Source: Candidatus Daviesbacteria bacterium RIFCSPHIGHO2_02_FULL_43_12
GTDB taxonomy: Bacteria; Patescibacteriota; Microgenomatia; Daviesbacterales; UBA10151
Reading direction: 5' to 3'
DNA: 64,000 nucleotides
Assembly (NCBI GenBank): GCA_001776775.1
Contig: MFDD01000014.1
Span: 3,684 to 67,683, forward strand
The position numbers were made by a program, and so were the translations under genes. The notes below the pieces were generated by a model that saw only the letters and a list, made by a program, of their open reading frames with translations, was not told the DNA's origin and searched no databases. This document shows, one piece after another, positions 24,079 to 58,091 of this stretch. Each line of letters starts with the position of its first letter. The stretch's first letter is position 1.

Positions 24079-24833
24079 TAAATCCCTCTTAGTGCAGTTA
24101 CTAAACCTGCATCTGGATTTGTAGTATATCTTGCTTGAAAGTTTAGAGCAAGATAATCCTGCTCAGAAGGCGGGAGCTGCACTCCTACAGCTCGGAATCT
24201 TTCTATACCTCTACCAAAGTTTGGATTAAGCATCACTCCCCTCCTTGTGAGCTCAGTCACACCCCTCCATGAGTCATTTAAAAAGCTTAACCCTGATCGC
24301 AGAATCTGACCATAAGCTACTACCTTGTATGCGCCTTGTTCAGTCTGTTGTGCCAAAAAAATATCCACTCCGGTGATTTTAGTCAGCCCATCAGAAAGAG
24401 GCTTATTCGTTGGAACATATAAGGCCTCCAATGCTCTAAGTAGTCCTCTAGTTGGTTCGGTTGTTGCAGTCAGGGCCTGTCTAACTTTTGAATGCCTTAA
24501 AGTATGTTCTCCTAGTTGGCTTAGATGAGCTATGGCATCACTTTGCCCTTCCAAAGCTCGGGTCACTAAACTATCTAAGAATCCTGTTAGGATTAACTGA
24601 TTTTCCGGAGAGCACTGAAACCCAACACAGGCTGCTGGTTGACCTTTTCCATGAACGGTACATATAGCTCCCTCCCTTTCCATTTTCAACAAAGGACATG
24701 CTACATTTGCTGATTTATCTATCTCGTAGATCGTTAATAATTTGCAACAAAGTCCACAGTCGCAATCTCCCCCATGAATTGTTTGGCTTGATCTTTCTTG
24801 TGCAGCGCTATTTAACATTTTATACTCCTCCAA
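24078..24833 (-). CDS. hypothetical protein with N-terminal CxCxxCC metal-binding (YkgJ/UPF0153-like) domain
   Basis: GGDCDCGLCCK...CPLL...CTVHG...CVGFQC cysteine pattern; the rest is unrecognised. Confidence 0.4.
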   Translation of the reverse strand: MEEYKMLNSAAQERSSQTIHGGDCDCGLCCKLLTIYEIDKSANVACPLLKMEREGAICTVHGKGQPAACVGFQCSPENQLILTGFLDSLVTRALEGQSDAIAHLSQLGEHTLRHSKVRQALTATTEPTRGLLRALEALYVPTNKPLSDGLTKITGVDIFLAQQTEQGAYKVVAYGQILRSGLSFLNDSWRGVTELTRRGVMLNPNFGRGIERFRAVGVQLPPSEQDYLALNFQARYTTNPDAGLVTALRGI

Positions 24834-26451
24834 TCACTTTGATTACTGGACAATATTGTTTAAGAATATTTAGTGCTTGATCCATCCGTTCATCGTTAGT
24901 AGAAACTTCTACTTCAATGAAGAAGTGGTAATCCCAAACTTTTTCTCTGCTCGGCCGGGATTCAATTTTAGATAAATTAATATTGCTGCTGGCAAAAACA
25001 TTGAGAATATCTCGTAAAATACCTACCCTATTAAATACTGTTAAAAAAAGCAGTGTCCGGGAAGTGGGGATAGATAATTTATTAATATCCTTGGAGATAA
25101 CATAAAACTTTGTAACGTTACTTTTATTATCCTCAATACCTTTTCGCAAAACAGGAATATTATTTAACTTGGCAGCAAGTAGTGGACTTATAAAGGCTAC
25201 GCCTAGCTCATTTCTGTGCTCTTTGATACTAGAAACAGTACTAGAGGCAGTCTCCATGTTGACATTTGGTAAATGTTCCCTGAGCCAGTTTCTACATTGA
25301 GCCAAAGCCTGGGGATGAGAATATACTTTAGTAATATTTTTTAGAGATTTTTCTTCGGAAAGTAAGTTTTGTTGAATCGGTAAGTTCAGCGAACCATTTG
25401 TTCTCATATCAAAATCTATCAAAAAGTCCAGCGTTTCTCTGACGGTTCCTTCGGTGGAATTCTCTGCCGGAACTATTCCAAAATCGGCTTGTAAACTTTT
25501 GACTGCTTCAAAGATTTTTAAGAAATTCTCACAAGGGAGAAGCTGGCTCTCTTTGGCAACAGTTAAGGAAATCTGATGAGAGAATGTTCCCTGGGGACCA
25601 AGGTAAGCTATTTTTCCTTTGAGTTTCTGGGGTAGGTCTTTTTGTTTTATGCTTGTCGCTTGTTGCTTGTTGCTTGTTCCTTTAGGAGTCGAGTCGATAC
25701 TCCTATGAATTTTTTCAATTAATTTATGAAGTTTTTCTCTATCACCATTTTTTAGTTCCTGAAGAAACTCTTGCTGAGTTTTGATGAAATCATTTAGTAC
25801 AGATAGCCCTTCACTATTTCCCAATTGAATTTCTGTCAATAGCTCTGGTGGTTGCGAAATTACTCGACTAAGGGTAGCCATTTGCGCGAGGAAAGGTGGG
25901 GTAGAAACTTTTCCCCCCAAGTCTATTTTATTTTTCAGTAAAACCTTGGCTAAGTTTAGATTTACAAAATGAGTTAGATTTTGCAGGTGAGCCATATATA
26001 GATCATGACTTTTTGACGACATTTCAATAATTTCGGCTCCAGCATTTTTAAGCACCACTTTAAGTTTGTCCAGTAGAGTGCTTTTTTTAATAACACTTAA
26101 AACAACTTTTTGGTTTTGGATGGACGATACTGTTGGACCAAAAAGTAAATGTAAACCTGCTGCGGGTTGGGGTATTTGCGATAGGGTTTTTGCGACTGCC
26201 TGTTGAACAGAAGAAAGATCAACAATTAAAGTATTTCTTTTAGCTCTTTTAGAAATATCCAAAATTACATCTTTGGCTTTGGAAATAGGGACCGAGACAA
26301 AAATAATCTCACTAGATTTTAGAGTACTATCTTCAACACCTTTAGAACCACTGACACTAACCAAAACCCTTTGGCTTTCTAAAAAGTTTCTTAGCCAATT
26401 CCCCATCTGTCCAGTCCCTCCAATAATATGTACTTTTAGATTTCTATTCAT
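24820..26451 (-). CDS. fusion protein: prephenate dehydrogenase (TyrA) N-terminal + prephenate dehydratase (PheA PDT domain) + ACT domain
   Basis: N-terminal Rossmann motif IIGGTGQMG and SHDLYMAHLQNLTHF (TyrA). C-terminal YLGPQGTFSHQ...ENSTEG...ESRPSR (PDT with ESRP motif) plus ACT. Confidence 0.7.
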   Translation of the reverse strand: MNRNLKVHIIGGTGQMGNWLRNFLESQRVLVSVSGSKGVEDSTLKSSEIIFVSVPISKAKDVILDISKRAKRNTLIVDLSSVQQAVAKTLSQIPQPAAGLHLLFGPTVSSIQNQKVVLSVIKKSTLLDKLKVVLKNAGAEIIEMSSKSHDLYMAHLQNLTHFVNLNLAKVLLKNKIDLGGKVSTPPFLAQMATLSRVISQPPELLTEIQLGNSEGLSVLNDFIKTQQEFLQELKNGDREKLHKLIEKIHRSIDSTPKGTSNKQQATSIKQKDLPQKLKGKIAYLGPQGTFSHQISLTVAKESQLLPCENFLKIFEAVKSLQADFGIVPAENSTEGTVRETLDFLIDFDMRTNGSLNLPIQQNLLSEEKSLKNITKVYSHPQALAQCRNWLREHLPNVNMETASSTVSSIKEHRNELGVAFISPLLAAKLNNIPVLRKGIEDNKSNVTKFYVISKDINKLSIPTSRTLLFLTVFNRVGILRDILNVFASSNINLSKIESRPSREKVWDYHFFIEVEVSTNDERMDQALNILKQYCPVIKVIGGV

Positions 26452-43881: not shown

Positions 43882-45797
43882 ATATTTGTTTGATAAATTT
43901 CATACTCCTTGCTTTCAAAAATGAGAGGAAATGTTTGTCTTATATAATTTCGGTTTATTGAGCCGTCGGTATCATACTTGGACAATAAAATGTAACGGAT
44001 ATTATATTCCCGAAAAAGTGGATCAGTTTCTTGTCCAGCTAACATTTTAATTAGATCAGCCTGTTGTCTTTGGTAATCTAATCCATAGCTCCATAACCAA
44101 CCGTTAAAACCAACGACTACTTTTCTTCCGGCAATTGAAACAGCTGGGTTATTAAAGACGTCCTTAGATAGAAAGGTTCCGTCATTTGGTAGGGTTTTAA
44201 TAAAGTTACCTGTCTTTAGTGCGTCCAATGAATATAGTTGATAACTTATTCCAGGAGTATTAAAAACCGGTTGGGTAATCAGACGCCAGTTGTCAATGAA
44301 ACCAGTTATTGTGCAAAGAATTAATATTCCTCCTGCCAATATTTTTATAGAGTCCCTGGGAACTCGAAGCATTTTTACTAAAGAGGCTACAACTAAAGGC
44401 AGGGTGAAGATATACCAGTAAATAAAGATTTTTATATTATCGAAATCCCAGGGTTGAAAAATAAATAGACTCCCTACAAAAAACCAAAATAATCCAACTA
44501 ACGCGAGTAGATATACATTGTCTCGTCTTTTTATATTCCATAAACAAAAAATTACAGTCAAAATCGGCAGAATATTAAAATTCTTCAGGTAAAAAAAGAT
44601 TGGATTTTCTCCGTGAGCCATCCACCATGGTTGAAACTTAATTAGAGAAAACATGTTGTCTGTTTGGGCTAAAAAGGATTTGGAAAGAAAGACAATTAAC
44701 AGACTCCCTATTAATCCAATGGGCGCCAGGAGGACTATCTTTTTAGGACTTTTAACTAGTAGCATTAATCCGATAAATAAAATAAACGGCGCCAGAATCA
44801 TTAAAGTATGAGTATGTACAAGCGGTAGCAGAGAAATCAGTAAGCTGCCGAAGATAAATTTAGGTAACAAGAATTTAGATTTTAATTCTAAAAAAACTCC
44901 GATAATGACCAGAGCAAAAGGAAGCCCTAGCAAAAAACTTCGCTGAGGTAGAAGCATCGATATCACTACGTTAATCCACCAAAACCCGATGTCTTTGAGG
45001 GCAGTATAGTCGTGAGGGATATGCTGGATAAATTGCCAGAAATGTTCGCCGGAGGAATAATAGTCTCGGAAAAAATGTACAAACCCAAACCCCCCATTAA
45101 AGAAAAAGAGGCTCAGTCCCAAGATACTGGCTAATTTACTTTTTGTTAAGCGATATAGAAAAAAGGTCAGGATTAAAATTAAACAGATCATAAAAATAGA
45201 TCCTGTCACTCCCACTGCCAAATCCACCCGTAATCCCAGGGGGTTAACAAACTGCGCCGTGATAAAATCTACCAAAAAGGGGTAGGATATCAGGGCTTTA
45301 GCCAAGTTGGGGTTTTCGACCGGAAAGTTATGACCCTCGGCAAAAGAATTAATAATCCCTAAATGTAAAAACATATCCCCATAAGCATGTAACAAGGCAA
45401 TATATAAGCCGTCCTTTGCATAGGTTAAGAGTCGCCAGGCTAAACCAGAATAAAGAAGTAAGAATAAGCAGTTAAGGCCGGCGAAAAGTTGCCATGATCT
45501 TTGTCGATACCTGGCTACAAAGTCCTGCAGATCCTCTTGAAGCACCCTACGGGTAGACTTTAAAAATAAAGCAAGTAGTAGCACTTCCAAGATGAGTAAA
45601 GAAATTAAAAAACTCCCCCAATTTAGTCCGAAAAGGTATGCAAATCCTAGGTTGATATATCCTAAAAAAATAAGCGAAATGAGCAGTCCGACAGCGCATT
45701 TTTCTTCTAGGAAAAACTTTAACCTAAAAAGTGTAGTCAAGGACACCCCAATTAAGATAAGATTAATCAACAGACTTGCGACAATAACTGCAGTCAT
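43878..45797 (-). CDS. large polytopic membrane protein (possible GT-C-type glycosyltransferase), hypothetical
   Basis: 639 aa with more than 12 TM helices and a C-terminal soluble domain. Confidence 0.5.
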   Translation of the reverse strand: MTAVIVASLLINLILIGVSLTTLFRLKFFLEEKCAVGLLISLIFLGYINLGFAYLFGLNWGSFLISLLILEVLLLALFLKSTRRVLQEDLQDFVARYRQRSWQLFAGLNCLFLLLYSGLAWRLLTYAKDGLYIALLHAYGDMFLHLGIINSFAEGHNFPVENPNLAKALISYPFLVDFITAQFVNPLGLRVDLAVGVTGSIFMICLILILTFFLYRLTKSKLASILGLSLFFFNGGFGFVHFFRDYYSSGEHFWQFIQHIPHDYTALKDIGFWWINVVISMLLPQRSFLLGLPFALVIIGVFLELKSKFLLPKFIFGSLLISLLPLVHTHTLMILAPFILFIGLMLLVKSPKKIVLLAPIGLIGSLLIVFLSKSFLAQTDNMFSLIKFQPWWMAHGENPIFFYLKNFNILPILTVIFCLWNIKRRDNVYLLALVGLFWFFVGSLFIFQPWDFDNIKIFIYWYIFTLPLVVASLVKMLRVPRDSIKILAGGILILCTITGFIDNWRLITQPVFNTPGISYQLYSLDALKTGNFIKTLPNDGTFLSKDVFNNPAVSIAGRKVVVGFNGWLWSYGLDYQRQQADLIKMLAGQETDPLFREYNIRYILLSKYDTDGSINRNYIRQTFPLIFESKEYEIYQTNI

Positions 45798-45822
45798 AAT
45801 TTATAAGTGTATCAGATTCAAT

Positions 45823-47277
45823 ATGAACAAAGAGACAAATATATTTTTGTTTGGGTTTTCTATCAGACAGGCGCTTATTATATTATTGATAGTTACATTC
45901 TTTCTGAGATTTTTCCGAATCTCTTATCCGACAACCTTTGTTTTTGACGAAGTCTATCACGGGTTCACTGCGGTGCAATATTCTCTGGGATCTAAAGAAG
46001 CTTGGGAATGGTGGACTACCCCACCCAAAGGAGTGGCCTTTGAATGGACCCATCCTCCTCTGGCCAAAGAGATCATGGCCTCTTCCTTAGTTTTATTCCG
46101 GACGGAGGAGCCGTGGGGATGGCGAATCCCAGGGGCTTTACTTGGCACAATTTGTGTTTACCTAGTTTTTCTTCTTGGGAAAATGATCTTTAAAAACGAG
46201 TCAGTTGGACTGTTCTCTAGCTTTGCGTTTGCCTTTGACGGTTTAAATTTTGTACAGTCCAGGACAGGGATGAATGACATCTATCTCGTAACCTTTATAC
46301 TGGCTAGTCTAGTACTCTTTTTGAGAAAAAAGTTTGTATTATCGGCGATCCTGTTTGGATTTGCCCTAGCATCCAAGTGGGCAGCAATTTATCTTCTCGG
46401 AGTATATGGCGTATTACTGATACTAGATTTAAAAAACTTCTGGAAGATTATATATTTTCTTATCTTTCCCATAAGTGTCTATCTTTTTTCCTATTTACCC
46501 TTCTTTTGGCTGGGACATACCTTTGATCAATTTTTAGAATTACAAAGACAGATGTGGTATTACCATACCCATCTTAAGGCTAGTCACGATTACGCCTCTC
46601 CCTGGTGGTCTTGGCCCTTTAACCTTGCTCCAGTTTGGTTTCATGTTGACTATTATAAAGATGCGATGGCCAATATCTTTACCTCGGGAAACCCGCTGCT
46701 TTTCTGGTCGGGATTTGTAAGCATGATTTTTTTGATTAAAGGTTTTATACTTTCAAAAAAAGGACAGATTATATATCTAGTCTTAACCGCCTTAACTTTT
46801 ACAATTTTTGCCGGTATTCTAGTAACCCATCCCCAGATAATATATTATCTAAATTTAAATGACCCAAAAGAATCGGTGCAGGTAGTATCCAGTAAAAAAC
46901 TCTCATCTTTACTCACTTACTTACTTCTAGCTTGGGGGGTGATTAGCGGCCTGTTAGCTCTTTTTTTTACTTTAAAACAAGGTGCTCATCATCAATTTTT
47001 AATTATTGCCGGGTACTTTGCTTTTTTACTTCCCTGGTCTGTATCTCCCCGGATTATGTTTCTTTATCATTATAGCGCCTGCGTACCATTTATGGCGATT
47101 GCCCTAGGCTATTTTCTTGCTCATTGGTATAAAAAGCAAAAGGATATGGTGATAGTTTTTTGTTTGATGATCTTGGTCAGTTTTTTCTGGGTCTATCCGT
47201 TCCTAACAGGTCTTCCTTTACCCAAAAACTTAATTTCGCTCTTCTTTGGAACCAATCTCACCAAAAACCCATTTTAG
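45823..47277 (+). CDS. GT39/PMT-like (ArnT-like) dolichyl/undecaprenyl-phosphate-sugar dependent glycosyltransferase
   Basis: FVFDEVYHGFTA...WTHPPLAKEIMA matches the N-terminal DE-loop of the PMT/GT39 family. Start moved to Met 45823 because the ORF-track start overlaps the divergent gene by 206 nt. Confidence 0.6.
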   Translation: MNKETNIFLFGFSIRQALIILLIVTFFLRFFRISYPTTFVFDEVYHGFTAVQYSLGSKEAWEWWTTPPKGVAFEWTHPPLAKEIMASSLVLFRTEEPWGWRIPGALLGTICVYLVFLLGKMIFKNESVGLFSSFAFAFDGLNFVQSRTGMNDIYLVTFILASLVLFLRKKFVLSAILFGFALASKWAAIYLLGVYGVLLILDLKNFWKIIYFLIFPISVYLFSYLPFFWLGHTFDQFLELQRQMWYYHTHLKASHDYASPWWSWPFNLAPVWFHVDYYKDAMANIFTSGNPLLFWSGFVSMIFLIKGFILSKKGQIIYLVLTALTFTIFAGILVTHPQIIYYLNLNDPKESVQVVSSKKLSSLLTYLLLAWGVISGLLALFFTLKQGAHHQFLIIAGYFAFLLPWSVSPRIMFLYHYSACVPFMAIALGYFLAHWYKKQKDMVIVFCLMILVSFFWVYPFLTGLPLPKNLISLFFGTNLTKNPF

Positions 47278-53441: not shown

Positions 53442-53930
53442 GTGAGAAAGGCTACTCTAGTTTTTTTAATACGAGGCAAAGAGCTACTTTTAGCGATGAA
53501 AAAGACAGGCTTTGGTAAGGGTAAATGGAATGGTGTCGGAGGTAAAGTAGAACCGGGTGAATCCGTTGAGCAAGCAGCCAAGAGAGAAGCCCTCGAGGAG
53601 ATTGGGGTTACGATTACAATCTCCGATCTTCTAAAAGTTGCCGATATTCAGTTTTTGTTTCCTCAAGGTTTAGATAAAAACAACAATCAACAGGTCAGTG
53701 TCTTTTTGGTTAATAATTGGCAGGGAGAACCAACAGAGTCTAGCGAAATGAAACCCAAATGGTTTAAGACCAGTGAGATCCCTTACCAACAAATGTGGTC
53801 CGATGATAAGTTATGGTTACCTGAAGTGTTAAGAGGTCGTAAGATCTCTGCGGAGTTTACTTTTGATAAAAAAGAAGAGATAAGTAAATTTCTAATTACA
53901 GATTTAGCGCTGAAGCCAGTTACTGCTTAA
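53442..53930 (+). CDS. NUDIX hydrolase (MutT-like)
   Basis: Nudix box GGKVEPGESVEQAAKREALEEIGV. Confidence 0.75.
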   Translation: MRKATLVFLIRGKELLLAMKKTGFGKGKWNGVGGKVEPGESVEQAAKREALEEIGVTITISDLLKVADIQFLFPQGLDKNNNQQVSVFLVNNWQGEPTESSEMKPKWFKTSEIPYQQMWSDDKLWLPEVLRGRKISAEFTFDKKEEISKFLITDLALKPVTA

Positions 53931-55038
53931 CCACTTTTTCCCAGGAGAATTCATCGCGACCGAAATGTCCGTAAGAAGAGGTTGCAAGATAGACCGGTTT
54001 ACGCAAATCTAGTCCACTTAAAATTCCTTCAACTGAAGTATCCAGAATTTTGGACATAAAGTCTTGAATCGCTTCCGACGAAACTTTGGCCGTTCCGAAG
54101 GTCTCAACCTCTTGCATTAAAGGTTTTTTAGCTCCGATAAAAAAAGCTAAGCGAACTTCGGCTTTGCTGGCTAAGCCATTGGCGACAATATTTTTAGCTA
54201 AAAACCTGGCCGCATATGCCCCGGACCGATCGACTTTGGTTGGGTCTTTACCGGAAAAACATCCACCACCAACCCGAGCATACCCGCCATACCCATCAAC
54301 GACAATCTTCCTACCAGTTAGTCCTGTATCGGCCGAGGGACCACCGTTATGCCAAACTCCGGTGCCATTAACGATCAAATCCTCCATCGACACCTCAAAG
54401 CCGTATTTTTTTAGAACCTCGGTCACGATCTTTTCATAAACGTCATTTTTGACTTGCTCAAGGGTAATTTCTTCTTTATGTGGAACAGCGATCACTACTT
54501 TGGAAACGCTGACTGGCTTACCATCTTGGTAGTCAACAGTTACCTGAGTTTTACCGTCCGGACGTAAATAATCTAGGATACTTTTTTCTCTAACCTCGTC
54601 AATTCGGCGGGCTAACTGGTGGGCGATCATAATTGGCATGGGCATAAGCTCGGGGGTCTCATTACAAGCAAAACCAAACATCATCCCCTGATCTCCTGCT
54701 CCCCGCTCTTCCATCACCCCAACGGCGATCTCCGGAGACTGAGCGTGGACATAGACATCGATGGGGGACTGGTCGGTAAATTCAAATTTAGGGTCGGTAT
54801 AGCCCAAGCGGACAACCTGCTCCTGGGCAGTTTTTAGAATATCTATTTTAGCAGTACTGGTAGTTTCCCCAGCAATCACCAAACGTCCATAAGTGGCAAG
54901 TGATTCGATAGCTACTCGACCCCGGGGATCTTGGGTTAAAATAGCGTCAACGACAGCGTCAGAGATGGCATCGCAGACTTTATCGGGATGACCGGCACAA
55001 ACTGATTCGGATGTAAAGGTAGTGTTATTATTTGGCAT
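53920..55038 (-). CDS. metK: S-adenosylmethionine synthetase
   Basis: FTSESV...GHPDKVCDAISDAVVDAIL and the rest of the MAT core. Start moved to Met 55038; the 14-aa ORF-track extension is the riboswitch terminator read in frame. Confidence 0.9.
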   Translation of the reverse strand: MPNNNTTFTSESVCAGHPDKVCDAISDAVVDAILTQDPRGRVAIESLATYGRLVIAGETTSTAKIDILKTAQEQVVRLGYTDPKFEFTDQSPIDVYVHAQSPEIAVGVMEERGAGDQGMMFGFACNETPELMPMPIMIAHQLARRIDEVREKSILDYLRPDGKTQVTVDYQDGKPVSVSKVVIAVPHKEEITLEQVKNDVYEKIVTEVLKKYGFEVSMEDLIVNGTGVWHNGGPSADTGLTGRKIVVDGYGGYARVGGGCFSGKDPTKVDRSGAYAARFLAKNIVANGLASKAEVRLAFFIGAKKPLMQEVETFGTAKVSSEAIQDFMSKILDTSVEGILSGLDLRKPVYLATSSYGHFGRDEFSWEKVVKQ

Positions 55039-55040
55039 TA

Positions 55041-55192
55041 AAAAACCTCTGATCAAGAGGCTAAAGATTTCCCGTACCATGCGATACAGGACACATCTTC
55101 CCCGCCTGGGCGAGGATCTGGCACCTTACTTAATATATTAAGAAGGTTGCCGCCATGTATCAATCAATACATGATCTCTTGATGACTTAGAT
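55041..55192 (-). promoter_or_regulatory. SAM-I-like riboswitch with terminator expression platform (metK leader)
   Basis: On the minus strand: P1 UCAUC...GAUG; J1/2 AAGAGA; a P2 hairpin; P3 GGCAACC...GGUGCC; AUCC; GAAGAUG closing. Then terminator CCUCUugaucAGAGG+U6 ending 2 nt before the metK ATG. The B. subtilis yitJ SAM-I riboswitch has P3 GGCAACCagaaauGGUGCC. Confidence 0.6.
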
Positions 55193-55270: not shown

Positions 55271-56113
55271 ATGGCTAAACTTATGGAAGGACCTGAAACA
55301 TCAGCTAATTTAGTAGAATCACTCCAGAATGGTTACATAAATATTGTCGATAGATCTCCTCAAACTCCAAAAACCCCGGTACCTGTATTTATATCTCCTG
55401 GGTGGAGCGAAACCCCGCAGGTGTTCGAAGATACAATCCAAGAATTTTTAGATGCTGGTCGCCGAGTAATAGCACTTAGCTATTCTGGCACACGCAAAAG
55501 CGACAATGAGACTAATTATCCAAACTTAGAAGTCGCTAAAGGAGAGGCAATTTTAGAGGTAATAAGACTTAAGGGCATTAAACAAGCTGACGTAGTCGGT
55601 CACTCAGAAGGAGCAATTGGAGCAGTGATCGCAGCGTCCCTGGAGCCTGGCAGCATTAGAAATCTTATTTTGGTATCGCCGGCCGGTTTTATCGGAAAAG
55701 ATAGCTTTCCTAAGCTGCTAGGAAGATTCTCCAGAAAAGTTATACAAGATCATTACCGACTGCTGACAGATAGACAATCAAGAAAACCGATGTCTCGCTT
55801 CCTGAAGCAAGGTCTTCGATTTGCAGTTTCACACCCGATCCAAGGGTTAAAAGAGGCGGTAGCTATTTCTCAGGTACAGTTGGGAGAGACCTTAAAAGAG
55901 TTACACGATTTAGGGGTAGGGACAGCAATTATTGCTGGTACTAATGACCCATTGTTTCATATGGCGAAATTGCAACGAACCGTAAAGTCAAGCATGATTG
56001 ATGGTTTTATATCAACTAAAGCTGGGCATGACGAGCTTCATCTCCAGCACAGCTACGCCAGAGCTATGGAACGAGTGCTAACAAGTTTAGAAAATAAAGC
56101 ATCAAGGCATTAA
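55271..56113 (+). CDS. alpha/beta-fold hydrolase
   Basis: Nucleophile elbow VVGHSEGA (GHSxG) and a plausible catalytic triad. Confidence 0.7.
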   Translation: MAKLMEGPETSANLVESLQNGYINIVDRSPQTPKTPVPVFISPGWSETPQVFEDTIQEFLDAGRRVIALSYSGTRKSDNETNYPNLEVAKGEAILEVIRLKGIKQADVVGHSEGAIGAVIAASLEPGSIRNLILVSPAGFIGKDSFPKLLGRFSRKVIQDHYRLLTDRQSRKPMSRFLKQGLRFAVSHPIQGLKEAVAISQVQLGETLKELHDLGVGTAIIAGTNDPLFHMAKLQRTVKSSMIDGFISTKAGHDELHLQHSYARAMERVLTSLENKASRH

Positions 56114-56529
56114 CCCCACTTAACTAGAATAATCGCCATGACTATCACGGATACAACTTGATAACCGTTATTAATAAAGTAAAGCGCCTTGGAGCGCTTC
56201 AAAAAAAGATAATCTCCCAGGCTACCCATCATCATAAACCCAACCCCAATCCATAAAGCCGTCAGAGTAGCATCAGTTAAAGTTTTGACTTGAAAAGCTA
56301 CTAAAACGCGTTCTAAAACATAGGCCATTAGCAGAGATGCTCCGGCTTCGAGCAGATACATTTTCTTTGCGCTTTCTTGATTGATCTCGGACTGGCTCTT
56401 ATTGATCAAAGCCATCCATTTTTTCCCAAAAAGGAGGCGAGAGTACCACAACATTCCAATGCCTATTCGAGCTATCACTGCAATAAATAAAGCTAAACTA
56501 ATTTCTATTCCGTTTTCCAAATGACACAC
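56110..56529 (-). CDS. DUF1761-like membrane protein
   Basis: Four TM helices. The WYSRLLFGKKWMAL motif is recalled for DUF1761. Confidence 0.4.
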   Translation of the reverse strand: MCHLENGIEISLALFIAVIARIGIGMLWYSRLLFGKKWMALINKSQSEINQESAKKMYLLEAGASLLMAYVLERVLVAFQVKTLTDATLTALWIGVGFMMMGSLGDYLFLKRSKALYFINNGYQVVSVIVMAIILVKWG

Positions 56530-56589: not shown

Positions 56590-58091
56590 TTGCTTGACTC
56601 AATATATATTTATCCTATAATGTTTGTTATGTTCGAGCTTTTCGGTAAATTTTATCCTAATCAAAAGTTGGCAGAGTTGCATGCGCATTCGAGTTTATCC
56701 AAAGATACGGTTAATGGTCTCAGTCCGGAACGGTTGGTAAGGATTGCTGTGGAAGTTGCAAAAATAGATGCTTTGGCTATTACTGATCACGACTCGATAG
56801 TTGGTTCACGAAGAGCTCGTAACTATGCCCGAAGGAGACAGTTACCCATAGAAATCATCCTGCTTCAGAGATTTCAACATCAGGTGGCCATGTGGTGGCT
56901 TTATATATTAAGCAAGATATCGAACCGGATCTGACTTCGGCAGAAACAGTAAAAAGAATCCATCGCCAAAGGGGTCTAGCTATTGCTCCTCATCCACTGT
57001 TTCAAAGAATACATGATTCCTTAGGGGAAGAAGGCGTATTGTCTGTTGCTAAGAGTATTGATCCCGAGGTGTACTGGGATGGTTTTGACATATTTAACGC
57101 TGGTGCAGCAGCTGTAACAAGAGGATTCCCCAACGAAAAAGCCTTAGCCTTTTATCTCCAACATCAAGATGAACTAGGAGCTCCAATTGGCAGCACTGAC
57201 TCCCATGGTGGATTAATTGGTCAAGCAGTAACTTCTTATGTAGATAATTTACCAGACGCTATTAAGAGCAAGGATACCGGAATATTACTGCTTGATCCGG
57301 AAGAGTTTACTGCTCGTTTGGCTACCCTTTTAGAAACACTCTGCCCAAAAAGACTTCGTCCTGGAATTATTGCTCGAGGAGAACGGATACAAAGACTACA
57401 TCGCAGTAGGATTAAACAACCACTGGGGGTGGCTGTTGTCCAAGGAGGGAGACACGAAGAAGCAGATTTATCCTTTTTGAGCCTAAGAGAATTAGGTAGA
57501 TATAATTTACTAACAGAAGGTCAAAAAACCGGCTGGCTAGCATCCCGGCTTGCCTTGAAGTTAGCCTATGGTAATGTTACAGGTTTACCAGCTGATTTGT
57601 TTCCAATGATCTCTGTTGATAATAAAATACAACCTGGCTCTTACAGTGGACCTCCGTTTATTAGCGCTAACCCTAATCTTCATTACTCCTTATCTCACTC
57701 AGAAACTGTAGGGATGGGCGGTGTCTCTAGTCATCCAGTGGGCGTGGATATTGAAAAGGTTATCGCCAGAAGTCATCGATTGTTAGATTATATTGCTACA
57801 CCTGGGGAGCAAGCCCAAGAAGAAGGTGGATTAGATAGACATCAACTGGTTACACGAATCTGGACCTTAAAAGAGGCTATCGCCAAGGGTACACAAATTG
57901 GTATTTCTATGCGGGATTTAGTTGTTCAACTATCGCGACAAAGAGGAGACACTTACGCTGCCAAAGTTTACTATAGAGGAAAGCACCTTTCTGATTGGAG
58001 AGCTGAAGTTTTTCACCGAGGAGATTACTACCTTAGTATAGCCCATCAGCTAGAAGATACTCCTCAGGATTTTGCAATCCATTGGCAATAA
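56590..58091 (+). pseudogene. PHP-domain phosphoesterase fused to Sfp-type 4'-phosphopantetheinyl transferase, interrupted by a -1 frameshift at ~56859
   Basis: Frame 1 (56590..56934) carries PHP motif 1 ELHAHSSLSKD...ITDHD. Frame 2 (open from 56823) continues PASEISTSGGHVVAL, IHRQRGLAIAPHP and STDSHGG, then PPTase motifs SLSHS...GVDIE and WTLKEAIAKGTQIG. Joining IEII|PASEIS needs one extra C at the CC run 56859-60. The likely true start is Met 56629, not 56590. Confidence 0.55.

What the first reader, a model, noticed from the sequence alone, without database searches (positions are those of the whole stretch)
56590..58091. PHP-domain phosphoesterase fused to an Sfp-type phosphopantetheinyl transferase, with a homopolymer frameshift
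PHP motifs (HAHSS..D, ITDHD, EISTSGGHVVAL, GLAIAPHP, STDSHGG) continue into a C-terminal PPTase domain (SLSHS, GVDIE, WTLKEAIAKG). This combination is not one I know. A -1 frameshift at the CC run 56859-60 splits it into two ORFs (IEII | PASEIS), and restoring one C gives a single 480-aa protein or longer. It could be a sequencing error, a recent pseudogenisation or slippage-prone. It is also odd for an organism that appears to lack fatty-acid and polyketide carrier-protein genes in this window.
Basis: seen in the sequence. Interest (0 to 1): 0.6.

Follow-up and report, generated by a model that had tools for sequence, protein, structure and literature searches.

The report
Frameshifted PHP phosphoesterase–PPTase fusion gene
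A Candidatus Daviesbacteria (CPR) genome carries a very rare gene that fuses a metal-dependent PHP phosphoesterase to an Sfp-type phosphopantetheinyl transferase, and here a real one-base deletion splits the PHP half, so the full-length enzyme is probably no longer made.

Summary
ORF1 (56590/56629..56934) and ORF2 (56892..58091) are two frames of one gene. One extra base after ATC-ATC (56857-59) restores a protein collinear, without gaps, with intact 476-532 aa homologues.

The N-half is a compact PHP barrel with all nine metal ligands. The C-half is an Sfp-type PPTase with the Sfp H90/D107/E109/E151/K155 equivalents. An AlphaFold model of an intact homologue and a Foldseek search of the PDB confirm both folds.

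The frameshift is not an assembly error. Eight loci read, out of 22 contigs from independent read sets and assemblers of Rifle Daviesbacteria, carry identical DNA. They are 100% identical over up to 7.2 kb, so this is one clonal population and one mutational event. I found no slippery site, no stimulatory RNA structure and no other lesion. The best reading is a recent pseudogene, or a truncated product that keeps only the PPTase.

The fusion is very rare: 7 intact clusters plus this one among 1.84 billion representative proteins. I found no paper describing it. My inferred function is PPTase plus hydrolysis of its by-product 3',5'-ADP. The main rival is removal of the phosphopantetheine arm. 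Neither has been tested, and the PHP domain lacks the nucleotide-binding insertion of known pAp phosphatases.

The parts
56594..56621 (+). Sigma-70-like promoter TTGACT-16 nt-TATAAT. It places the transcript start next to ATG 56629, so ORF1 may be leaderless.
   Evidence: 11 of 12 matches; consensus match only, not evidence of function.
56629..56861 (+). Frame-1 part of the gene: N-terminal third of the PHP domain, carrying metal ligands H21, H23, D29 and H57 (numbering of the 490-aa repaired protein that starts at ATG 56620). Read as ORF1, it continues out of homology to the stop at 56932-34.
   Evidence: Gene callers in public assemblies also start this ORF at ATG 56629, giving a 101-aa product.
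56857..56862 (+). Frame-break site ATC|CT|G. One base is missing relative to intact homologues (probably CCT Pro reduced to CT). Reading on requires a -1 shift.
   Evidence: Identical in 8 independent loci.
56862..57296 (+). Frame-0 remainder of the PHP barrel, with ligands E84, H91, H125, D194 and H196. E84 and H91 lie upstream of ORF2's first start codon (GTG 56892).
56892..58091 (+). ORF2 as called (398-399 aa, GTG start, with SD-like AGGTGG at 56882-87). This is the only product that could retain PPTase activity without recoding.
57297..57464 (+). Two-helix linker between the PHP barrel and the PPTase. It is also partly present at the C-terminus of stand-alone PHP relatives.
   Evidence: helices 226-243 and 248-262 in the P0003 model.
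57465..58088 (+). Sfp-type (two-lobe, about 210 aa) 4'-phosphopantetheinyl transferase domain. Key residues: H360 (SLSHS), D377/E379 (GVDIE, 57747-55), W415, K418, E419, K423 (WTLKEAIAKG).

Best explanation
This is one gene of a small family of bifunctional proteins. The N-half is a compact PHP barrel with the nine ligands of a trinuclear metal site. A two-helix linker joins it to a complete Sfp-type phosphopantetheinyl transferase. In intact members, the PPTase most likely moves the 4'-phosphopantetheine arm from CoA onto a carrier protein, which is not yet identified. The attached PHP domain most likely hydrolyses the co-product 3',5'-ADP (pAp) to AMP and phosphate, removing the co-product. 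That second step is inferred, not shown. In this Daviesbacteria population a genuine one-base deletion breaks the frame inside the PHP barrel. Without recoding, the cell makes at most two products. One is a 101-aa N-terminal fragment. The other is a 398-aa protein that lacks six of the nine metal ligands but keeps the whole PPTase. The PHP activity is therefore lost, and the locus is a recent pseudogene or a truncated PPTase-only gene.
For: Fusion and domains: Pfam and NCBIfam hits. Alignment to intact 476-532 aa homologues P0002, P0003, P0012, P0013, P0014, P0016 and P0020 shows no gap at the junction. The AlphaFold model of P0003 has pLDDT 90.3 and pTM 0.89. Foldseek top hits are AASDHPPT, Sfp and PptT for the C-half, and the RNase AM PHP domain 7ug9, TM0559 and Cv1693 for the N-half.
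Catalytic residues: the PHP ligands and the Sfp H90/D107/E109/E151/K155 equivalents are present.
Real lesion: the same 101 aa + 398 aa split is reported on 22 contigs. In the 8 loci read, DNA across the site is identical. They come from GenBank, ENA and Logan assemblies of different runs and are 100% identical over up to 7.2 kb.
No recoding signals: no slippery heptamer in the sequence; downstream fold z +1.05; no Rfam hit at the site.
Recent event: no other stop or indel, and conserved family positions are retained.
pAp idea: the best-scoring PHP-type NCBIfam models include RNase RNM (the TrpH / RNase AM type) and 3',5'-nucleoside bisphosphate phosphatase. PHP enzyme Cv1693 hydrolyses pAp, and pAp is a by-product of CoA metabolism (PMC8268124). 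That the PPTase reaction releases 3',5'-ADP is established biochemistry. Other relatives of this PHP are fused to glycosyltransferases. That fits a reusable phosphatase module, though this is my inference.
Against: The PHP domain lacks the insertion domain. In RNase AM and Cv1693 that insertion forms the Arg-rich pocket for the 5'-phosphate and the stacking Phe for adenine (PMC9410882). Here H91 to H125 spans 34 residues, against H83 to H198 in RNase AM. The NCBIfam scores are far below the equivalog cut-offs (45 vs 375 bits; 34 vs 400 bits). No carrier protein was found in the window or beside intact homologues, so the PPTase substrate is unknown. Two fusion members have substitutions at PHP ligand positions (P0016 TDYN, P0020 GD). 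Read-level data were not available, so a minor intact allele cannot be excluded. All contigs represent one clonal population, so the persistence of the lesion through evolutionary time is unknown.
Confidence: 0.55

Rival explanations
1. The PHP domain is a phosphodiesterase that removes the phosphopantetheine arm from holo-carrier proteins. It would be functionally like AcpH or PptH, so the fusion pairs opposing 'on' and 'off' activities or recycles phosphopantetheine.
For: Two unrelated metal-dependent phosphoesterase folds already do this job: HD-type AcpH and metallophosphoesterase-type PptH, which counteracts PptT (PMC8557913). From my own knowledge, PptH is encoded next to PptT in M. tuberculosis. 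PHP enzymes include diesterases and nucleases such as RNase AM. The high pTM of 0.89 suggests a fixed two-domain unit that could share a carrier-protein docking surface (my inference).
Against: Related stand-alone compact PHP proteins, about 28-39% identical, occur in genomes labelled Halobacteria, methanogens and other archaea. By general knowledge these mostly lack carrier proteins and PPTases, so the ancestral substrate is unlikely to be a holo-carrier protein. There is no sequence or fold similarity to AcpH or PptH.
Confidence: 0.15
2. The frame break is decoded: programmed -1 ribosomal frameshifting or transcriptional slippage yields the full-length protein, possibly in a regulated way.
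For: A -1 shift after ATC (56857-59) would give exactly the homologous sequence IEII-PASEIS. Apart from the break, the gene shows no decay. The lesion is fixed in the sampled population.
Against: There is no X_XXY_YYZ slippery heptamer and no long homopolymer at or near the site. The downstream RNA is no more structured than shuffles (z +1.05). The SD-like AAGGAGA at 56832-38 lies about 19 nt upstream, too far by comparison with dnaX (my knowledge). All seven intact homologue clusters encode the protein in one frame, so the break is not a conserved feature.
Confidence: 0.04
3. Sequencing or assembly artefact: the true genome has CCC and an intact gene.
For: Single-base indels are a common error class in some technologies.
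Against: The sequence across the site is identical in all 8 loci read, out of 22 contigs reported with the same 398-aa product. These come from different SRA/ENA runs and three assembly pipelines (GenBank MAG GCA_001776985.1, ENA k141 assemblies, Logan contigs). Four GenBank protein accessions carry the same truncated ORF. Four other overlapping same-strand ORF pairs tested in the window are distinct genes, not split genes.
Confidence: 0.03
4. The two domains are functionally unrelated, and the fusion is a neutral accident of gene adjacency in small genomes.
For: Genomic contexts of the fusions share no conserved partner genes.
Against: The fusion is kept across lineages only 30-45% identical to the window protein. 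Most members conserve the catalytic residues of both halves and the linker. The predicted packing is confident (pTM 0.89).
Confidence: 0.15

Closest known systems
Sfp-type (group II) 4'-phosphopantetheinyl transferases: B. subtilis Sfp, human AASDHPPT, M. tuberculosis PptT
   Same: Two-lobe fold of about 210-230 aa. Foldseek E 6e-12 to 1e-8 with TM 0.6-0.7 normalised to the target. The motifs GxP..(F/Y)SLSHS, GVDIE and WxxKEAxxK align to Sfp H90, D107, E109, E151 and K155.
   Different: Only 14-18% identity. Scores are below every NCBIfam equivalog cut-off. The domain is fused behind a PHP domain. The carrier-protein partner is unknown.
COG0613-type PHP phosphoesterases: E. coli RNase AM (YciV/TrpH, 7ug9), C. 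violaceum Cv1693 pAp phosphatase (2yb1)
   Same: PHP barrel with the same nine ligands for three metals (His/His, Asp, His, Glu, His, His, Asp/His), matching the RNase AM ligand list in PMC9410882. These are among the best sequence and fold matches for the N-half.
   Different: It lacks the roughly 70-aa insertion domain that binds the 5'-phosphate and base. TM normalised to the target is only about 0.49 against full-length Cv1693, versus 0.67 against the insertion-less RNase AM crystal model.
TM0559 (2anu) and other compact stand-alone PHP proteins of about 220-280 aa
   Same: Same compact architecture. Stand-alone relatives such as P0015 are 51% identical to the window's PHP half and share the C-terminal helix.
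   Different: As far as the PDB entry title shows, TM0559 has no assigned function. None of these proteins carries a PPTase.
M. tuberculosis PptT / PptH pair
   Same: A PPTase genetically coupled to a metal-dependent phosphoesterase acting in the same pathway (PMC8557913; gene adjacency from my own knowledge).
   Different: PptH is a calcineurin-like metallophosphoesterase, not a PHP enzyme, and it is a separate polypeptide. This is an analogy only.

Membership tests
Sfp-type PPTase (Pfam PF01648 ACPS superfamily, group II) | Significant match to the ACPS profile above the curated cut-off | tested here: met
   PF01648 E 4.9e-13, 49.5 bits against a cut-off of 25.
Sfp-type PPTase (Pfam PF01648 ACPS superfamily, group II) | Catalytic and Mg-binding residues equivalent to Sfp D107, E109 and E151, plus K155 and H90 | tested here: met
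   D377, E379, E419, K423 and H360 align to them. D, E(KEA), K and H are invariant in the family alignment A6. The E109 equivalent varies in some relatives (Q, L or S).
Sfp-type PPTase (Pfam PF01648 ACPS superfamily, group II) | Monomeric two-lobe pseudo-dimer fold of about 220 aa, not the 120-aa AcpS trimer type | tested here: met
   In the model of intact homologue P0003, Foldseek aligns 240-264 columns to AASDHPPT, Sfp and PptT.
Sfp-type PPTase (Pfam PF01648 ACPS superfamily, group II) | Transfers phosphopantetheine from CoA to a carrier protein | not testable with these tools
   Needs an enzyme assay. No carrier protein was found in the window or in the fusion loci.
PHP domain superfamily (PF02811) | Profile match above the Pfam gathering score | tested here: not met
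   18.1 bits against 26.4, E 0.0035, N-terminal 70 residues only. The precomputed annotation does list PF02811 for relatives P0004 and P0012.
PHP domain superfamily (PF02811) | Nine conserved metal ligands (HxH, D, H, E, H, H, DxH) on a PHP barrel | tested here: met
   H21, H23, D29, H57, E84, H91, H125, D194 and H196 are conserved. The fold matches 7ug9, 2anu and 2yb1.
3',5'-nucleoside bisphosphate (pAp) phosphatase, Cv1693 type (NF041577) / RNase AM (NF047791) | Score at or above the NCBIfam equivalog cut-off | tested here: not met
   33.8 vs 400 bits and 45.1 vs 375 bits; N-terminal part only.
3',5'-nucleoside bisphosphate (pAp) phosphatase, Cv1693 type (NF041577) / RNase AM (NF047791) | Insertion domain with the Arg cluster (RNase AM R107, R110, R141) and stacking Phe that bind the 5'-phosphate and the base | tested here: not met
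   Only 34 residues separate the H91 and H125 ligands, against 115 in RNase AM. TM to full-length Cv1693 and V. cholerae RNase AM is about 0.48-0.49.
Programmed -1 ribosomal frameshift site | Slippery X_XXY_YYZ heptamer, a downstream stimulatory structure, and conservation in homologues | tested here: not met
   No heptamer. Fold z +1.05. Homologues are encoded in a single frame.

The most novel reading that the evidence does not exclude
The intact family is a self-contained carrier-protein switch or salvage enzyme. The PHP domain would be a third, convergently evolved class of phosphopantetheinyl hydrolase, after HD-type AcpH and MPE-type PptH, and it would be covalently tied to the PPTase that installs the arm. 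Bacteria with minimal genomes could then recycle scarce phosphopantetheine and CoA. The Daviesbacteria lineage would have just lost the 'off' half.
Probability: 0.12. Interest if true: 0.7.

Novelty: new variant of a known kind. Interest (0 to 1): 0.4.

Why it matters
Both domains belong to well-known enzyme superfamilies. Their fusion was not found in the literature searched and is extremely rare. It links a PPTase to a phosphoesterase that plausibly acts on the PPTase's own by-product (pAp) or on its product (the phosphopantetheine arm). If the link is confirmed, it would assign a first function to a subgroup of compact PHP proteins, whose stand-alone relatives occur in CPR bacteria and archaea. 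It would also show how reduced-genome bacteria handle CoA-derived nucleotides. For this genome the practical message is smaller. The gene is really broken, so public annotations of a 398-aa 'PPTase domain protein' plus a 101-aa hypothetical protein describe the two halves of one disrupted gene.

Tried and rejected
- GTDB species genomes (185,579) scanned with the full-length alignment. The kept 80 of 286 relatives are PHP-only hits; there is no fusion and no record of the window's own genome.
- Metagenome contigs scanned with PPTase-domain alignments. A7 returned only distant stand-alone PPTases. tblastn of both domains against all 172 fetched loci found both domains only in the already known fusion loci.
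- Neighbour analysis of the intact homologues L001, L002, L091 and L092. Neighbours have no Pfam families and no conserved partner. The one exception is a weak alpha/beta-hydrolase match (24% identity, E 1e-16) between L001 1451-2302 and window 55271-56113. I judged this too weak and too common a fold to count.
Nothing below E about 0.6.
- Other split genes in the window: four overlapping same-strand ORF pairs proved to be separate genes.
- Look-ups of P0010 and P0011 found no contig on record.
- Literature searches for PHP together with PPTase returned nothing relevant.

Full report
**Observation**

The region holds two overlapping forward ORFs: 56590..56934 (frame 1) and 56892..58091 (frame 0). 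Translating the three frames shows frame 1 reading ...RRRQLPIEII and then running into unrelated sequence. Frame 0 reads ...PASEISTSGGHVVALYIKQDI... from 56859 onward.

Joining the frames with one added base after ATC-ATC (56854-59) gives a protein of 487 aa from ATG 56629, or 490 aa from ATG 56620. That protein aligns without any gap at the junction to intact homologues. The closest stand-alone PHP relative, P0015, reads LEVIPASEISTQDGHVIALYIK, against IEIIPASEISTSGGHVVALYIK here. The lost base was therefore most likely a C of a CCT proline codon. CTN (Leu, as in P0002) cannot be excluded.

The 'homopolymer' is only a CC dinucleotide. The most probable start is ATG 56629. It matches the homologues' N-termini (consensus M-x-E-x-x-G). 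It also lies just downstream of an 11/12 sigma-70-like promoter, TTGACT-16-TATAAT, at 56594-56621. Gene callers in public assemblies chose the same start.

**What the two halves are**

Pfam finds ACPS (PF01648) at residues 373-475 with E 4.9e-13, and a sub-threshold PHP match at the N-terminus. NCBIfam finds PHP-type families for residues 17-140: RNase RNM, CehA/McbA and 3',5'-nucleoside bisphosphate phosphatase. For residues 342-440 it finds Sfp-type PPTases (AcpT, HetI, AusB, EntD). All of these are far below the equivalog cut-offs.

PDB sequence search hits the RNase AM PHP domain (7ug9) and Sfp (1qr0). The Sfp alignment places H360, D377, E379, E419 and K423 on Sfp H90, D107, E109, E151 and K155.

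An AlphaFold2 model of the intact homologue P0003, built on a 53-sequence alignment, is confident: pLDDT 90.3, pTM 0.89. In Foldseek against the PDB, human AASDHPPT, Sfp and PptT are the top matches for the C-half. The RNase AM PHP domain, TM0559, BAD_1165 and Cv1693 match the N-half.

All nine PHP metal ligands (H21, H23, D29, H57, E84, H91, H125, D194, H196) are conserved. They correspond to the RNase AM ligand set listed in PMC9410882.

The PHP domain is of the compact kind. Only 34 residues separate the H91 and H125 ligands, where RNase AM has 115 residues containing its insertion domain. That insertion carries the arginines and the phenylalanine that hold the 5'-phosphate and the adenine.

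**How common the fusion is**

- A word-indexed search of 5.8 billion protein clusters found ORF2 itself, two intact fusions (P0002, 476 aa; P0003, 497 aa; 43-45% identity) and PHP-only proteins.
- An exhaustive profile search of 1.84 billion representatives added five more full-length fusions: P0012, P0013, P0014, P0016 and P0020.
- Below those, the same search listed dozens of stand-alone compact PHP proteins of about 250-280 aa and one close stand-alone PPTase (P0108).
- No fusion appeared among the best 80 PHP loci from 185,579 GTDB species genomes.
- None appeared among 80 PPTase loci from JGI metagenomes.
- tblastn with both domains against all fetched loci confirmed this.
- Three targeted literature searches found nothing describing the combination.
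- The four intact fusions whose contigs I looked up (P0002, P0003, P0012, P0020) come from Logan assemblies of one run series (SRR223879xx to SRR223880xx). Their contigs have 40-42% GC, like the window.

**The organism and the frame break**

Exact-sequence look-up shows ORF2 is deposited as OGE30859.1, OGE39929.1, OGE40513.1 and OGE70390.1 from Candidatus Daviesbacteria MAGs, and as UniRef A0A1F5KGE2. The look-up reported the 398-aa product on 22 contigs, always preceded by a 101-aa ORF. Sources include GenBank (GCA_001776985.1), ENA assemblies and Logan assemblies of SRR2090153, SRR2090155, SRR2090157 and SRR3989338.

I read eight of these loci. They are base-for-base identical to the window across the frame break and over their full 2.6-7.2 kb. 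Two conclusions follow. The missing base is not an assembly or sequencing artefact. And all data sample one near-clonal population, so this is a single mutational event of unknown age.

No relative between 45% and 100% identity exists in the databases searched, so the event cannot be dated by comparison. Apart from the frame break the gene looks healthy. It has no further stops or indels, and the conserved positions of both domains are retained. Four other overlapping same-strand ORF pairs in the window are separate genes, so the window is not littered with frameshifts.

**Could the break be decoded?**

Going from frame 1 to frame 0 needs a -1 shift. A shift right after ATC 56857-59 would reproduce the homologous sequence. 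Nothing else supports recoding:

- There is no X_XXY_YYZ heptamer and no long homopolymer.
- The 99 nt downstream fold no better than shuffles (z +1.05).
- Rfam has no hit at the site.
- All intact homologues are encoded in one frame.

I rate recoding at about 4%.

Without recoding, ORF1 yields a 101-aa fragment carrying four ligands. ORF2 starts at GTG 56892 or 56895, which is preceded by AGGTGG. Its product lacks H21, H23, D29, H57, E84 and H91 but contains the complete PPTase. The PHP activity must be lost. The PPTase may survive.

**Mechanism**

*Shown:* the domain identities, the catalytic residues, the fixed two-domain architecture in the model, and the conservation of the fusion across lineages 30-45% identical to the window protein.

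*Inferred:* the functional coupling. The PPTase reaction converts CoA plus an apo-carrier protein into the holo-carrier protein plus 3',5'-ADP (established biochemistry). pAp is a recognised by-product of CoA metabolism, and a PHP enzyme, Cv1693, hydrolyses it (PMC8268124). The PHP families that best match this domain include that enzyme's family and RNase AM. A fused pAp 3'-phosphatase that clears the co-product is therefore the simplest rationale. I give it about 0.4.

Against this, the domain lacks the insertion that binds the nucleotide in those enzymes. Specificity would then have to come from elsewhere, perhaps from the PPTase lobe itself.

The main rival, at about 0.15, is phosphodiesterase removal of the phosphopantetheine arm, by analogy with AcpH and with PptH, which opposes PptT (PMC8557913). 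Related stand-alone PHP proteins in genomes labelled Halobacteria and methanogens argue against a carrier-protein substrate as the ancestral one.

No carrier protein was found in the 64-kb window or next to the intact homologues. Neighbouring genes are uninformative.

**Comparison and novelty**

- The C-half meets the tested defining features of Sfp-type PPTases.
- The N-half meets the structural and ligand criteria of the PHP superfamily.
- The N-half fails both tested criteria for membership in the Cv1693 / RNase AM equivalogs: score, and presence of the insertion domain.
- The combination is a new domain architecture built from known enzyme kinds, hence 'new variant of a known kind'.

In this particular genome the gene is disrupted, which lowers its immediate interest. 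The family behind it is a modestly interesting and directly testable Rosetta-stone link. Interest: 0.4.

**Confidence**

The overall confidence of 0.55 for the best explanation combines three parts:

- about 0.95 for the fusion identity;
- about 0.9 for a genuine, undecoded lesion;
- about 0.4 for the specific pAp-hydrolysis role of the PHP half.

Noticed in passing
window 55054-55190 (-): SAM-I/IV riboswitch-like match (RF01725, 36.6 bits, below the gathering score of 41.1, E 0.002) in the leader of the metK gene (53920-55080, -). This would be plausible SAM feedback control of SAM synthetase in a CPR genome.
   Followed up: no
window 24820-26451 (-): A 543-aa ORF combining prephenate dehydrogenase (PDH_N + PDH_C), prephenate dehydratase (PDT) and an ACT domain in one polypeptide. 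This is an unusual TyrA-PheA type fusion.
   Followed up: no
window 55271-56113 (+) and L001 1451-2302 (+): An alpha/beta-hydrolase lies just upstream of the fusion gene. It has a weak homologue (24% identity, E 1e-16) about 5.8 kb upstream of the intact fusion in L001. This could be loose linkage or chance. No thioesterase family hit was found.
   Followed up: partly
window 56110-56529 (-): A DUF1761 membrane protein is encoded divergently, directly upstream of the fusion gene. Its function is unknown.
   Followed up: no
proteins P0005-P0007, P0080, P0067 (relatives, not in the window): The same compact PHP domain occurs fused to GT4 or GT2 glycosyltransferases, and also as a tandem PHP-PHP protein. 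This suggests it is reused as a phosphatase module attached to different transferases.
   Followed up: no
window 45592-47277 (+): A PMT-family (dolichyl-phosphate-mannose protein mannosyltransferase-like) membrane protein.
   Followed up: no
L002 1468-1521: The homology of P0002 to the PHP domain starts 54 nt upstream of its called start codon. The deposited 476-aa protein is therefore probably N-terminally truncated by the gene call and misses the first His of the HxH motif.
   Followed up: partly
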